Below are positions 11,207-13,885 of a stretch of DNA of 46,580 nucleotides, piece by piece (positions within the stretch are counted from its first letter, which is position 1; every line of letters starts with the position of its first letter). The notes under the pieces were generated by a model. The model ran no database searches, was not told where the DNA came from, and saw only the letters and a list, made by a program, of their open reading frames with translations. The position numbers and the translations under genes were made by a program. The stretch lies in the IMG/VR virus record IMGVR_UViG_3300031413_000013, positions 1 through 46,580 of that record; one strand, 5' to 3'. The stretch comes from a virus.

Positions 11207-11883
11207 TGACCATCGATACGACAGACCAGCAAGCGGTGACGGTTGCGCAGGAGGACCGGGAGGCGGCTGCGAACATGCACGCTTACATCATGCGCGAGTT
11301 GGGCGATGCCGCCCCGGCCAAGCTCTTGTGCGATATTATGACGGAGCGGATGAGGACCGGGTGGCACGATAACAGCGAAGGGGTCCAAGCCTTCGCCCGC
11401 CATCGCCCCGCCTCTGTATCATCCGCGAGTGTAGAGACGTTGGCGCTACAGGCGATCAAGGTCGTCACCGCCACGGCAAAGGACGGTGCAGCGGGGCTTT
11501 CGCGGATCATGGCGATCGCGAACGCTGCGGGCGTGCAGGCATCCTACAACGATTTGCTGCAAGATCCCGCGGTGGCGCTGATCGTCGAGCATCCGCGCAC
11601 CGAATGGACGCACTTGTTCAAGCCGGATGCGAAGGGTTGCGCAATCCCGCCCGATGGCTGGCAGTGTTCACGCGCTCGCGGCCATGCCGGTCCGTGCGCC
11701 GCATCCCCCGAACCTGTACCCGCGACCAATCAGGCGGGAGAGGTGGCCGAACGGGCGCGCGAGTTGGCGCACCGGATCATCTTGGAGTTCAGGCCAAACG
11801 GTTGGGAGGCAAAGGAGAAGGAACTGTATCGGCTTTTGCTTGGCAGTTTTGAAGCCGCCCTCGCACAGGTCAAGGCATCATGA
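11206..11883 (+). CDS. Hypothetical protein (225 aa).
   Basis: Long coupled ORF. Confidence 0.65.
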   Translation: MTIDTTDQQAVTVAQEDREAAANMHAYIMRELGDAAPAKLLCDIMTERMRTGWHDNSEGVQAFARHRPASVSSASVETLALQAIKVVTATAKDGAAGLSRIMAIANAAGVQASYNDLLQDPAVALIVEHPRTEWTHLFKPDAKGCAIPPDGWQCSRARGHAGPCAASPEPVPATNQAGEVAERARELAHRIILEFRPNGWEAKEKELYRLLLGSFEAALAQVKAS

Positions 11884-12236
11884 GCGGGGCTGTCGAAGGG
11901 GTGGCGCTATCGCCTTGTCCGTTCTGTGGCTCATGTGATGTGGTGCTGATCCCTCAGACGGGCTCAGTCGAATGCATTGACTGCGGCGCGATCGGCCCTG
12001 GCACGCTTGGCGATGATTGTGCCGCGCTCTGGAACACCCGCACCACACCCCCAGCGCGGTCCTATGCGGATGCGATCGAGGACGCGGCGAAGGCCTGCGA
12101 GGACCAGCAGCAAGTGTTTCTGTCCCCGCAGTACGCCACAGGTCAACCGCTGTCATCATTTCACGAGCGTTTCGCGTGCGGGCAGTGTGCCGCCGCCATC
12201 CGCCTCTTGTCGCATTCCAGTAAAGGTGTAGAGTAA
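11880..12236 (+). CDS. Lar-family (restriction alleviation)-like protein, copy 1. Its 3' end has been replaced by the tnpB insertion.
   Basis: LSPCPFCGSCDVVLIPQTGSVECIDCGAIGP...ALWNTRT matches the Lar zinc-ribbon pattern CPFCG...C..CG...WNTR. Confidence 0.65.
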   Translation: MSGAVEGVALSPCPFCGSCDVVLIPQTGSVECIDCGAIGPGTLGDDCAALWNTRTTPPARSYADAIEDAAKACEDQQQVFLSPQYATGQPLSSFHERFACGQCAAAIRLLSHSSKGVE

Positions 12237-13341
12237 TGGAGATGGCAACTCAGACCATAACCGCCAAGTTTCGGCTACGCGATAAGCACGCGACTGAGCT
12301 TAATCGCCAGTCCCGCGTCGTCAATTTTGTGTGGAACTACTGCAACGAGGTACAGAAGAAGGCGGCTCAAGCCGGTCGAAAGTGGCTTACCGCGTTTGAG
12401 TTGATGCGGATGACCAGCGGCTCTTCGAAAGAACTGGACGTACACTGCCATACGATCCAGCGGGTATGCTCCGCGCATTATGATGCTCGTCGTACGCACA
12501 AGCTTCCTTGGCTTAGGTGGCGTTCGCGTAAATCGCTTGGATGGGTTCCGTTCAACAACAGCTACGTTCATTTCGATGGCGAGTGTTTCGTGTTCCGTGG
12601 CGTCCGCTACGAGGCGATGCATCTACGTCCATTTCTTAAGCCGGGCATGCGGTTTGGCGCTGGCAGCTTTAATGCTGATGCCAAGGGCAACTGGTATATC
12701 AATCTGCCAGTCGCTGTAGAGTGTGCAGATCCATGCTCAGGCCCATCGATCGGCGTTGACCTGGGTCTTAAGACGCTTGCAACGCTATCCGATGGCGCAA
12801 GCATCGTTATGCCGCGCTTCTACCGCGAAAGCGAGATGGCACTGGCTACTGCGCAGCGCGCCAAAAAGACGAAGCGCGCTCGAGCGATTCAGGCGAAGGC
12901 GCGTAACCGTCGCCAAGACTTTCAGCACAAGGCAAGTAAGGCATTGTGCGCGAAATACGGGGTCATCATCGTTGGTGATGTGAGCCCGTCGAAATTGGCC
13001 AAGACCAGCATGGCGAAGTCGGTTTACGACGCCGGCTGGTCGGGCCTCAAGAGCATGATCCGGTACAAGGCAATTATGCATGGCGGGACATATCTTGAGG
13101 TCAATGAGGCCTATAGTACCCAAACCTGCTCTTCGTGTGGCTCGCTGCCCGCGTCGAGGCCGAGAGGTATCGCAGGACTTGGAATGAGGGAATGGGAGTG
13201 CAGCGACTGCGGAACGGTCCACGACCGTGACGTAAACGCTGCGCGTAACATTCTCCGTGTCGGGCTGGACACGCTTGCCGAAGGAGCCGCGGCGAGACGG
13301 GGGAAACCCCTTATCGCTGAGGAGCAGCCAATCTTGTCGCA
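12205..13341 (+). mobile_element. TnpB-only insertion (IS200/IS605-family, IS1341-like) bracketed by the 10-bp direct repeat TCTTGTCGCA.
   Basis: The repeat lies at 12205-12214 and 13332-13341. The interior is visibly lower in GC than the flanks and contains a single tnpB ORF. No tnpA is present. Confidence 0.7.
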
Positions 13342-13357
13342 GGGAGCCTCGGCATGA
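12236..13357 (+). CDS. tnpB: TnpB RNA-guided endonuclease (OrfB_IS605 + Zn ribbon); catalytic residues intact.
   Basis: RuvC-I is SIGVDLGLKT, RuvC-II is LEVNEAYSTQTCSSCG, the zinc finger is CSSCG...CSDCG and RuvC-III is HDRDVNAARNILRVG. The protein is 373 aa. Confidence 0.9.
   Translation: MEMATQTITAKFRLRDKHATELNRQSRVVNFVWNYCNEVQKKAAQAGRKWLTAFELMRMTSGSSKELDVHCHTIQRVCSAHYDARRTHKLPWLRWRSRKSLGWVPFNNSYVHFDGECFVFRGVRYEAMHLRPFLKPGMRFGAGSFNADAKGNWYINLPVAVECADPCSGPSIGVDLGLKTLATLSDGASIVMPRFYRESEMALATAQRAKKTKRARAIQAKARNRRQDFQHKASKALCAKYGVIIVGDVSPSKLAKTSMAKSVYDAGWSGLKSMIRYKAIMHGGTYLEVNEAYSTQTCSSCGSLPASRPRGIAGLGMREWECSDCGTVHDRDVNAARNILRVGLDTLAEGAAARRGKPLIAEEQPILSQGASA
13150..13357 (+). ncRNA. Candidate omega-RNA (scaffold plus guide) for TnpB. 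Predicted only from position.
   Basis: In known TnpB systems the guide RNA overlaps the 3' end of tnpB and ends in flanking DNA. A local hairpin GGGG-AAA-CCCC lies at 13300-13310. No covariance evidence is available. Confidence 0.35.
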
Positions 13358-13533
13358 GCACCACCGACATCCCCAAGCGCTACGACGACAACGGTATCCG
13401 CATGATGCAGACCGGGGCCGAACGTCGCTTACCCTGCGGTCGGACGGTACAGATGCACACGCCTAACCCAGAGTGGATGGCCGAACTGCTGGCAAAGCTT
13501 GGCGATGTGCCGGAGGTGCGAAATGGCCAGTAG
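13354..13533 (+). CDS. Small hypothetical protein (59 aa; below the ORF-track cutoff).
   Basis: Manual translation gives MSTTDIPKRYDDNGIRMMQTGAERRLPCGRTVQMHTPNPEWMAELLAKLGDVPEVRNGQ*. Third-position GC is high, and the start forms an ATGA overlap with the tnpB stop. Confidence 0.5.
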   Translation: MSTTDIPKRYDDNGIRMMQTGAERRLPCGRTVQMHTPNPEWMAELLAKLGDVPEVRNGQ

Positions 13534-13885
13534 CTTCGACATCCCGCCGCCCTTCACTGTTCGCACCCTTGCCGATCGGTGGGGGTGCAGCGAAGGCGCG
13601 ATCCGTAAATTGATCGACACAGATGGCTTGCCGCATTTCAGGATCGGTGTCCTTATCAGGATCGCCGCGAGCGATATCCAGGAATACGAGCAATGCCAGA
13701 AGACCCCTACACCGTTCAAAAGCTGCGAGGCGGATTTGCCATCGTCCACCGTGAAGACGGAAAGCGACGACGGATCCAGCTCGAGGCGACGGATCGCCAA
13801 AGCGCCGAAGCGGAAGCGCGCCGCAAATGGGCAGCTAGTGACCAGTCGCCGTGGACTGTCTCTCGTGTCGTCGCACACTACCTAA
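13523..13885 (+). CDS. xis: Excisionase-family HTH protein. The ORF runs about 190 nt into int in another frame.
   Basis: FTVRTLADRWGCSEGAIRKLIDTDGLPHFRIGVLIRIAASDIQEYE is a typical excisionase/AlpA HTH_17 pattern located directly upstream of int. Confidence 0.65.
   Translation: MASSFDIPPPFTVRTLADRWGCSEGAIRKLIDTDGLPHFRIGVLIRIAASDIQEYEQCQKTPTPFKSCEADLPSSTVKTESDDGSSSRRRIAKAPKRKRAANGQLVTSRRGLSLVSSHTT

What the first reader, a model, noticed from the sequence alone, without database searches (positions are those of the whole stretch)
13150..13357. Predicted omega-RNA whose guide would match only TnpB-free (empty-site) versions of this phage
In characterised TnpB systems the omega-RNA scaffold overlaps the 3' end of tnpB. 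The guide is transcribed from the DNA immediately past the element's right end.

Here that places the scaffold at roughly 13150-13341, which includes the hairpin GGGG-AAA-CCCC at 13300-13310. The guide would start at GGGAGCCTCGGCATGA (13342 onward).

That sequence lies next to the left-flank motif only in a genome without the insertion. The nuclease would therefore be programmed against the uninterrupted Lar/xis-proximal allele. This suggests homing, or exclusion of related co-infecting or resident phages.

This is inference from the known mechanism. The RNA is not directly visible in the sequence.
Basis: inference. Interest (0 to 1): 0.6.

Follow-up and report, generated by a model that had tools for sequence, protein, structure and literature searches.

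The report
Phage TnpB guide RNA, guide corrected
This temperate phage carries an intact RNA-guided nuclease gene (tnpB) with a real guide-RNA scaffold, but the guide starts 10 bases earlier than proposed; the corrected guide matches a short junction shared by at least 19 related phages that lack the gene, and the element shows a 10-base target duplication that this transposon family is not supposed to make.

Summary
The omega-RNA scaffold is real. A covariance model built from 37 relatives, without this window, hits the window once, at 13188-13331 (116 bits, E=2e-38). Its helices covary strongly.

In about 150 independent relatives, conservation stops after the homologue of GCAGCCAA (13331). 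The guide therefore begins at 13332 (TCTTGTCGCAGGGAGC), not at 13342.

Nineteen TnpB-free viral contigs carry the uninterrupted site. One is a collinear relative with a 16/16 match, and 17 of the 19 match at least 15/16. The site is a conserved ~40-nt gene junction.

The element is not a canonical IS200/IS605:
- It has no TnpA gene and no TnpA-type end hairpins.
- It is flanked by a 10-bp duplication of guide positions 1-10.
- The same anchored 10-11-bp duplication occurs in 4 of 39 distinct relatives (P about 2e-6). It was confirmed against empty sites for two of them.

Two things are untested. The flank at the TAM position (CCGCC) matches none of the relatives' TAMs, and the nuclease belongs to the RuvC-II-rearranged clade.

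Other agents of this scan noted similar guide-duplicating repeats at phage tnpB genes elsewhere. I did not check those notes.

The parts
12236..13357 (+). tnpB ORF, 373 aa. RuvC-I D175, rearranged RuvC-II (G247, alternative E291), RuvC-III D332, zinc finger C298/C301/C322/C325. The ORF reads through the right end and stops in an ATGA overlap with the next gene.
13188..13331 (+). omega-RNA scaffold. Helices: 13188-13194 with 13249-13255; 13209-13212 with 13239-13242; 13256-13261 with 13268-13273; 13274-13276 with 13281-13283. The terminal variable hairpin is closed by 13287-13288 with 13321-13322. It ends in the 3' tail GAGCAGCCAA.
   Evidence: Model R1, built without the window: 116 bits, E=2e-38, positions 1-141 of 141. 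Covariation.
13290..13318 (+). Variable terminal hairpin (CGGCGA...GGGGG-AAA-CCCC...TCGCTG). It replaces the CCCCGNCC-TTCA-GGNCGGGG hairpin that TnpA-mobilised relatives carry here.
13332..13347 (+). Predicted 16-nt guide, TCTTGTCGCAGGGAGC. The length is assumed from ISDra2.
   Evidence: The scaffold-to-flank boundary is seen in about 150 relatives. The ~16-nt length is from PMC8612924.
12205..12214 (+). Left copy of the 10-bp direct repeat TCTTGTCGCA. It equals guide positions 1-10, so it is a partial target.
13332..13341 (+). Right copy of the 10-bp direct repeat. It starts exactly at the scaffold end.
12192..12204 (+). Left arm of the conserved junction (GCCGCCATCCGCC). Its last 4-5 bases (CCGCC, 12200-12204) sit at the TAM position.
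   Evidence: Identical in 19 viral contigs.
12215..12235 (+). 21-nt linker between the left repeat and the tnpB start. It contains no LE hairpin. The Lar-like ORF stops in a TAATG overlap with the tnpB ATG.
13342..13359 (+). Right arm of the junction, GGGAGCCTCGGCATGAGC. It holds the Shine-Dalgarno sequence and the ATGA start/stop overlap of the downstream ORF.
11880..12236 (+). Lar-like ORF. Its tail was changed by the insertion from ...LLSQGASA* to ...LLSHSSKGVE*.
13354..13533 (+). Downstream 59-aa ORF. It is followed by an HTH_17 ORF (excisionase-like by position) and an integrase.

Best explanation
Window 13188-13331 encodes the scaffold of a TnpB omega-RNA. It overlaps the 3' end of an intact tnpB of the RuvC-II-rearranged clade.

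The RNA is probably cut out of the read-through operon transcript (inferred). Its guide starts at 13332, reading TCTTGTCGCAGGGAGC for an assumed ~16 nt.

That guide is complementary to a ~40-nt gene junction. The junction comprises an upstream ORF tail (...AAIRLLSQG..), the Shine-Dalgarno sequence and an ATGA overlap. It is conserved at the nucleotide level in at least 19 phages that lack tnpB.

TnpB-omega-RNA would therefore bind, and probably cut, the uninterrupted junction of related co-infecting or resident phages. The result would be exclusion of the rival or copying of tnpB into it (inferred).

The element is not a TnpA-mobilised IS. It lacks both end hairpins and the phage has no TnpA. 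It is flanked by a 10-bp duplication of guide positions 1-10.

My best reading of that scar is that the element entered at its own RNA-guided target. The right joint (right end to target position 1) was made precisely, by homology. The left joint was an illegitimate join between the broken target, trimmed until TnpB could no longer re-cut it (at most 11 matching bases), and a 5'-truncated left end. This last step is inferred.
For: Scaffold:
- Model R1, built from 37 relatives without the window, gives one hit, at 13188-13331, 116 bits, E=2e-38, full length.
- 96% of cells are paired, and 119 compensatory cells compare with 31 in shuffles.

Boundary:
- In about 150 distinct relatives, conservation ends after (T/C)CA(A/C) and the flanks are unrelated.
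- L033 and L034 carry the same right end in different flanks.

Nuclease:
- D175, E291, D332 and the CxxC pairs are invariant or nearly invariant in 171 relatives.
- A Gly replacing the RuvC-II Glu, with an alternative Glu, is described as a predicted-active rearrangement (PMC10691335).

Targets:
- 19 viral contigs hold the uninterrupted junction with a single repeat copy.
- L312 matches 16/16 and is collinear with the window.

Duplication:
- A repeat anchored exactly at the right end, 10-11 nt long, is found in the window, L002, L153 and L175. That is 4 of 39 distinct loci, against an empirical null of 0.0023 per position, giving binomial P=2e-6.
- In the other three, the left copies are preceded by ATGAC, CCGAC and ATGAC. 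That is the TAM seen at canonical relatives.
- L002's predicted empty site ATGAC-CACCGAGACA-TTCGG exists in 12 contigs.
- All four lack both the LE hairpin and the canonical RE hairpin.
- L002's left linker is a 5'-truncated LE that keeps its promoter.

Other:
- No Y1 or serine TnpA is present in the phage.
- Dra2 TnpB binds but does not cut targets mismatched beyond about position 8, and needs 12-16 bp to cut (PMC12803034).
Against: - The TAM position at the window's target is CCGCC. TAMs inferred for relatives are (A/T)TGAC, TGAA(C) and TTCAT, so cleavage of the empty junction is not assured.
- Activity of the Gly-substituted RuvC-II clade was only modelled in the paper I read.
- There is no expression data, and no promoter-like site lies near the element.
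- Only one occupied junction is seen against 19 empty ones, so there is no sign of an ongoing sweep.
- The trim-until-uncuttable account of the 10-11-bp length is my inference. End joining in the unknown host is assumed.
- A one-ended TnpA event followed by repair could give the same scar.
Confidence: 0.6

Rival explanations
1. The element ends at 13341, the guide is GGGAGCCTCGGCATGA from 13342, and the TAM lies in ...CTCTTGTCGCA.
For: The 10-bp repeat makes the insertion point ambiguous from this sequence alone. The empty-site reconstruction itself is right.
Against: A model built without the window ends at 13331. None of about 150 relatives has extra bases after (T/C)CA(A/C). This guide matches the 19 natural empty junctions over only 5-6 contiguous bases.
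Confidence: 0.03
2. An RNA-guided binder rather than a cutter. TnpB-omega-RNA binds the 10-nt seed copy at its own left junction (12205-14), throttling read-through into tnpB, xis and int. It may also bind the junction (a Shine-Dalgarno-masking hairpin region) of other prophages. This would be TldR-like regulation without cleavage.
For: - The left copy keeps the same 5' flank plus 10 matching bases, a length that is bound but not cut by Dra2 TnpB.
- Some TldRs use 9-11-nt guides (PMC10705468).
- The TAM position does not match relatives' TAMs.
- tnpB is translationally coupled inside an operon.
Against: - All catalytic residues of the rearranged site and the zinc finger are conserved, unlike TldRs.
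- The same clade includes multi-copy, evidently mobile elements.
- The repeat also occurs at relatives where no regulatory logic is apparent.
Confidence: 0.15
3. A stranded passenger. The element was imported once by illegitimate or short-homology recombination between mosaic phages. Its guide has no working target because there is no TAM, and the intact ORF only reflects recent arrival.
For: - The TAM mismatch.
- One occupied junction against 19 empty ones.
- GC of 54-57% against 60-66% in the flanks suggests recent foreign origin.
- Other scan notes read similar repeats as recombination scars (unchecked).
Against: - The repeat starts exactly at the scaffold end in four independent lineages, with a tight 10-11-nt length and a TAM at three left copies.
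- Generic illegitimate recombination does not predict this.
- The scaffold and catalytic residues are fully conserved.
Confidence: 0.17

Closest known systems
ISDra2-type TnpB/omega-RNA (OMEGA) of IS200/IS605 (Karvelis 2021, PMC8612924; PDB 8BF8/8EXA/8H1J)
   Same: - The protein is homologous (E=3e-22 to 8bf8).
- The scaffold of ~144 nt overlaps the 3' end of tnpB and the right end.
- The guide is read from the flank immediately after the right end.
- The empty site is the predicted target.
   Different: - The RuvC-II Glu is replaced by Gly, with an alternative Glu.
- There is no TnpA, no LE hairpin and no canonical RE hairpin.
- A 10-bp target duplication is present, whereas IS200/IS605 are described as making none (PMC13565253).
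- The TAM position does not resemble TTGAT or the relatives' TAMs.
RuvC-II-rearranged TnpB branches (RIIr; Altae-Tran et al. 2023, PMC10691335)
   Same: The catalytic Glu of RuvC-II is replaced by Gly, with a conserved alternative Glu. Some such branches are reported to be enriched in viruses.
   Different: I did not place this protein on their tree, so the specific branch (for example RIIr-4 or RIIr-5) is not assigned. The passages I read do not mention target duplications or junction targeting.
Transposon homing by TnpB (Meers 2023, as summarised in PMC10705468 and PMC13565253) and free-standing phage homing endonucleases (SegF and others)
   Same: A nuclease encoded next to its own recognition site cuts the allele lacking it in a co-infecting genome. 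The review explicitly lists 'transposon non-restorative homing' into co-infecting phages as possible.
   Different: Here the homology around the site is only ~40 nt in most potential recipients, and the resident copy carries a duplication scar. Homing has not been demonstrated.
TldR, nuclease-dead TnpB derivatives in prophages (Wiegand 2024; PMC10705468)
   Same: A prophage-borne TnpB relative with a fixed guide. Short (9-11-nt) guide-target matches suffice for binding.
   Different: TldRs have lost catalytic residues and the zinc-finger/RuvC C-terminus. This protein keeps them.

Membership tests
TnpB (OMEGA effector) | OrfB_IS605 / Cas12f1-like TNB domain architecture | tested here: met
   PF01385 at 1.7e-9 and PF07282 at 1.7e-23. 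PDB TnpB chains at 3e-22.
TnpB (OMEGA effector) | Canonical RuvC D-E-D triad | tested here: not met
   The RuvC-II Glu (ISDra2 E278) aligns with G247, which is invariant Gly in 171 relatives.
RuvC-II-rearranged TnpB (RIIr) | Gly at the RuvC-II position plus a conserved alternative Glu, with RuvC-I and RuvC-III Asp kept | tested here: met
   G247 is in 171/171, E291 in 171/171, D175 in 169/171 and D332 in 170/171. The description is in PMC10691335.
TnpB (OMEGA effector) | C4 zinc finger between RuvC-II and RuvC-III | tested here: met
   C298, C301, C322 and C325 are invariant.
omega-RNA | Conserved structured scaffold overlapping the 3' end of tnpB, supported by covariation | tested here: met
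omega-RNA | Sharp scaffold-to-guide boundary at the element's right end | tested here: met
   The boundary is at 13331/13332.
omega-RNA | RNA is made, bound by TnpB, and carries ~16 nt of flank | not testable with these tools
   This needs small-RNA or RIP-seq.
TnpB targeting | A cognate TAM immediately 5' of the target in the empty site | tested here: inconclusive
   The empty sites have CCGCC. Relatives use (A/T)TGAC, TGAA(C) or TTCAT. The TAM of this protein is unknown.
IS200/IS605 insertion sequence | Subterminal LE and RE hairpins recognised by Y1 TnpA | tested here: not met
   There is no LE hairpin or LE motif within 300 nt upstream. The RE slot holds a different hairpin.
IS200/IS605 insertion sequence | Insertion 3' of the target motif without target-site duplication | tested here: not met
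   The 10-bp repeat flanks the element and the empty sites hold one copy. The 'no TSD' statement is in PMC13565253.
IS200/IS605 or IS607 | A TnpA (Y1 or serine recombinase) in the element or genome | tested here: not met
   PF01797 and PF00239 are absent from the 46.6-kb phage. A host copy cannot be excluded.
TldR (nuclease-dead TnpB regulators) | Loss of RuvC catalytic residues and/or the C-terminal ZnF/RuvC | tested here: not met
   The residues are conserved.

The most novel reading that the evidence does not exclude
Some phage-borne TnpB elements have given up TnpA-type ends and spread by an RNA-guided route of their own. They insert at the target of their own guide, which is a short junction conserved across otherwise mosaic phage genomes. 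They leave a diagnostic 10-11-bp duplication of guide positions 1-10 or 1-11. The retained TAM-plus-seed copy may also act as a bind-but-do-not-cut site upstream of tnpB.
Probability: 0.3. Interest if true: 0.8.

Novelty: new variant of a known kind. Interest (0 to 1): 0.6.

Why it matters
The omega-RNA prediction itself is routine. Three points make this locus more useful than that.

1. With the guide corrected, there are natural candidate targets. A conserved junction occurs in at least 19 TnpB-free phages, including a collinear relative. This makes TnpB-mediated phage-versus-phage exclusion or homing directly testable with defined sequences.

2. The element breaks two textbook rules of IS200/IS605, which are end hairpins and no target duplication. 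It does so in the same way in four independent lineages, which points to a TnpA-independent way for TnpB genes to enter genomes.

3. The scar leaves a TAM-position flank plus a 10-nt seed next to the gene. That is the kind of partial target known to be bound but not cut, and it suggests a possible step from selfish nuclease towards regulator.

Tried and rejected
- **Rfam 15**, permissive E-value, over 11800-13800: no family.
The right flank beyond GGGAGC differs between phages. The 16-mer and 19-mer searches then found the empty sites.
- **Lar-protein search for sister phages:** only relatives of at most 48% identity (one 21-residue segment at 81%).
- **Right flank of the 71% relative L003,** searched to learn the TAM of the GCCAA-ending group: only the same contig was found.
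- **Alternative registers of the insertion point inside the repeat,** for example TAM=TTGTC with the guide from 13339: rejected. They need 7 extra bases after the conserved scaffold end, which no relative shows.
- **Chance origin of the repeat:** rejected, P=2e-6.
- **Ordinary DDE-type target duplication:** unlikely. There are no inverted repeats and no transposase, the repeat starts exactly at the scaffold end, and three left copies follow the family's TAM.
- **cDNA (RNA-mediated) origin of the insert:** disfavoured. L002's left linker includes the element's own promoter, upstream of any transcript start.
- **Shorter anchored repeats** (6-8 nt in L230, L232, L240, L251): cannot be told from chance.
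- **Homology search with the left linkers of L002 and L153** against all fetched loci: only self hits. The similarity of L002's linker to L230 and L231 was seen by eye.

Full report
**What is at the locus**

The window is a complete 46.6-kb viral record with terminal repeats.

- ORF 12236-13357 (+) encodes a 373-aa TnpB. It matches Pfam OrfB_IS605 and Cas12f1-like TNB and solved ISDra2 TnpB chains at E=3e-22.
- It lies between a Lar-like ORF (11880-12236) and a small ORF, an HTH_17 ORF and an integrase.
- Its GC content is 54-57%, against 60-66% in the flanks.
- TCTTGTCGCA occurs at 12205-12214 and again at 13332-13341.
- The phage encodes no Y1 or serine TnpA.

**The scaffold is real**

I fetched about 230 related tnpB loci from viral, genome and metagenome collections. 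Their 3' regions share one architecture:

- a long-range helix;
- a short GCGG/CYGC helix;
- a 6-bp stem with a GGAC-type loop;
- a 3-bp CTT/AAG helix;
- the motif GGAGCC;
- a variable hairpin;
- a terminal G(G/A)AG..(T/C)CA(A/C).

RNAalifold on 38 sequences gave 23 pairs, 13 of them with compensatory changes.

| Measure | Observed | Control |
|---|---|---|
| Cells paired | 96.2% | 39-55% when partners are slid |
| Compensatory cells | 119 | 31 in shuffles |
| Shuffles reaching the observed value | 0 of 500 | - |

A covariance model built from 37 relatives without the window finds exactly one hit in the window. The hit is at 13188-13331 (+), scores 116 bits with E=2e-38, and covers model positions 1-141 of 141. 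Rfam has no such family.

**Where the guide starts**

In about 150 distinct relatives, conservation stops immediately after (T/C)CA(A/C), and what follows is unrelated from locus to locus. L033 and L034 carry identical right ends in different flanks.

The homologous position in the window is after GCAGCCAA, at 13331. The guide therefore begins at 13332. It reads TCTTGTCGCAGGGAGC if it is ~16 nt long, as in ISDra2 (PMC8612924).

**The nuclease**

- The canonical RuvC-II Glu aligns with G247.
- In 171 distinct relatives this position is invariably Gly, and E291 is invariant.
- D175, D332 and the four zinc-finger cysteines are also kept.
- This is the RuvC-II rearrangement described by Altae-Tran et al. 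They model the alternative Glu as restoring the active site and say the consequences remain to be tested (PMC10691335).
- Activity is therefore likely but not shown.

**Natural empty sites exist and are a conserved junction**

The corrected 16-mer occurs in 7 viral contigs, roughly the number I would expect by chance for a collection of this size (my estimate). One of them, L312, also shares the 13 bases to the left.

L312 is collinear with the window, with blastn segments in the same order and up to 83% identity. It has no tnpB at the site.

The 19-mer CCATCCGCCTCTTGTCGCA occurs in 19 viral contigs. All of them read GCCGCCATCCGCC-TCTTGTCGCA-GG(G/A)A.. with one repeat copy. In most, an ATGA or GTGA start/stop overlap follows. 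Sequence further left and right is unrelated among them.

The junction consists of:

- the tail of varied upstream ORFs (...AAIRLLSQG..*);
- the Shine-Dalgarno sequence;
- the start of varied downstream ORFs.

It folds as a hairpin in which CCUCUU pairs with the Shine-Dalgarno sequence.

| Guide | Match to the 19 empty junctions |
|---|---|
| Corrected (from 13332) | at least 12 contiguous in all 19; 15 in 17 of them; 16 in L312 |

The functional idea of targeting TnpB-free relatives is therefore supported, in corrected form.

**The element is not a canonical IS200/IS605**

More distant relatives have the expected left flank (A/T)TGAC, followed by GCGAGCGCAAG plus a CCCCGNCC-TTCA-GGNCGGGG hairpin, and a similar hairpin in the right end. 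A multi-copy family in Oxalobacteraceae uses TTCAT.

The window has neither hairpin.

Its 10-bp repeat starts exactly at the scaffold end. The same holds in three other lineages:

| Locus | Sequence at left copy | Sequence at right end |
|---|---|---|
| L002 | ATGAC-CACCGAGACA | GCCAC-CACCGAGACA |
| L153 (= L006, L060, L244) | CCGAC-AACACGCCGTC | GCCAC-AACACGCCGTC |
| L175 | ATGAC-GGGTGAAGTG | GCCAC-GGGTGAAGTG |

Among 39 distinct loci of at least 54% identity, 4 have an exactly anchored repeat of 10 nt or more. The empirical rate at control positions is 0.0023, which gives P=2e-6.

All four lack both hairpins.

L002's predicted empty site occurs in 12 viral contigs. It is again a ~40-nt conserved junction, here a Shine-Dalgarno sequence plus the first codons of a gene whose N-terminus looks GH108-like to me. 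It again has one repeat copy and a 16/16 guide match.

The repeat is thus a true target duplication. IS200/IS605 are stated not to make such duplications (PMC13565253).

**How the scar may arise (inference)**

The structure is TAM-position / target 1-10 / truncated left end / tnpB / scaffold / target 1-16.

- The right joint is the canonical one.
- The left joint is displaced by 10-11 bp and has lost the LE hairpin.
- By eye, L002's left linker resembles the part of the canonical LE downstream of the hairpin in L231 and L230. It keeps a sigma-70-like promoter: TTGAAT-N16-TATACT in L002, against TTGCAA-N17-TATATA in L231.
- The presence of the promoter argues for a DNA-level join and against a cDNA origin.

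I propose the following sequence of events:

1. TnpB cuts an empty junction.
2. The distal end is repaired from a tnpB-bearing genome through the short right-hand homology.
3. The TAM-proximal end is joined illegitimately.
4. That end is re-cut and trimmed until it retains too little target to be cut.

Dra2 TnpB needs 12-16 bp to cut and still binds with about 8 (PMC12803034). This would explain an upper limit of 11.

A one-ended TnpA event followed by repair, or integration of a circle through the 10-bp core, cannot be excluded.

**Caveats**

- The TAM position at the window's target (CCGCC) resembles none of the relatives' TAMs. Cutting of the empty junction may therefore fail, or the TAM specificity may have changed.
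- No promoter-like or terminator-like sites lie nearby. Expression presumably depends on operon read-through and on processing by TnpB, which is known for other TnpBs (PMC10278001, abstract only).
- Only one occupied junction is seen against 19 empty ones.

**Comparison and novelty**

As an omega-RNA, this is a new member of a known kind. The concept of homing into co-infecting phages is already in the literature.

The variant features are:

- loss of hairpins;
- an anchored 10-11-bp duplication in four lineages;
- targeting of conserved junctions in mosaic phages;
- a retained seed copy.

I did not find these features described in the searches I ran.

Other agents of this scan noted a 12-bp repeat at a decayed tnpB in a jumbo phage, and a 47-base duplicated gene end at another phage tnpB. 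I did not check these notes, and they are not independent evidence.

Noticed in passing
window 12192-12214 plus 13342-13359; L312, L314-L331: A ~40-nt junction, GCCGCCATCCGCCTCTTGTCGCAGGGAG(G/A)..GGCATGA, is nucleotide-identical in at least 19 viral contigs whose genes on either side are unrelated. It gives different upstream proteins the same tail (AAIRLLSQG..*). It folds so that CCUCUU masks the Shine-Dalgarno sequence of the next gene. It looks like a portable translational-coupling or module-boundary element.
   Followed up: partly
L230, L232, L236, L153, L175, L012, L181 and others (right ends of related tnpB loci): In 18 of 39 relatives, the conserved GGAGCC inside the right end acts as a Shine-Dalgarno sequence for an ATG, often overlapping the tnpB stop as ATGA. 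That ATG opens an ORF reading out through the right end for at least 30 codons into the flank. The family's TAM ATGAC is a start codon plus AC. In L175 and L153 the out-reading ORF is in frame with the host gene whose start was hit. The element seems to carry a replacement start for the gene it interrupts.
   Followed up: partly
window 13332-13357; L245, L240, L251, L172: In 10 of 39 loci, including the window, the tnpB ORF itself reads through the right end. In several of these it stops in an ATGA overlap with the next gene, which preserves translational coupling across the insertion.
   Followed up: partly
L175:60-110; L240 around 2492: tnpB has lost its own start and is fused in frame to the start codon and first codons of the interrupted host gene. 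In L175 the reading is ATG ACG GGT GAA GTG, then tnpB.
   Followed up: no
window 13342-13357 compared with L010, L012, L175 and L062 right ends: The junction's right arm GGGAGCCTCGGCATGA closely resembles the GAAGGAGCCTTGGCATGA (tnpB stop/portable start) segment inside relatives' right ends. The conserved junction might itself descend from an old TnpB right end. This has not been tested statistically.
   Followed up: no
L328 (same contig as L003/L148/L229): The 71%-identical tnpB of another phage lies about 1.6 kb upstream of an intact copy of the same conserved junction, in the same orientation. Related phages thus carry related tnpB genes at different sites of the same operon.
   Followed up: no
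L169, L170, L173 just after the right end; L054 left flank: Partial second copies of the right-end terminus occur: GGCGGGGGAGCAGT follows the true end in L169, L170 and L173, and GGATGTCAAT also sits in the left flank of L054. These suggest tandem or repeated insertions at the same site.
   Followed up: no
L117:970-1010 and 2180-2250: A related tnpB element is flanked by two copies of what looks like a tRNA 3' end (GGGTTCGATTCC...TCACCCGCTCCAA).
   Followed up: no
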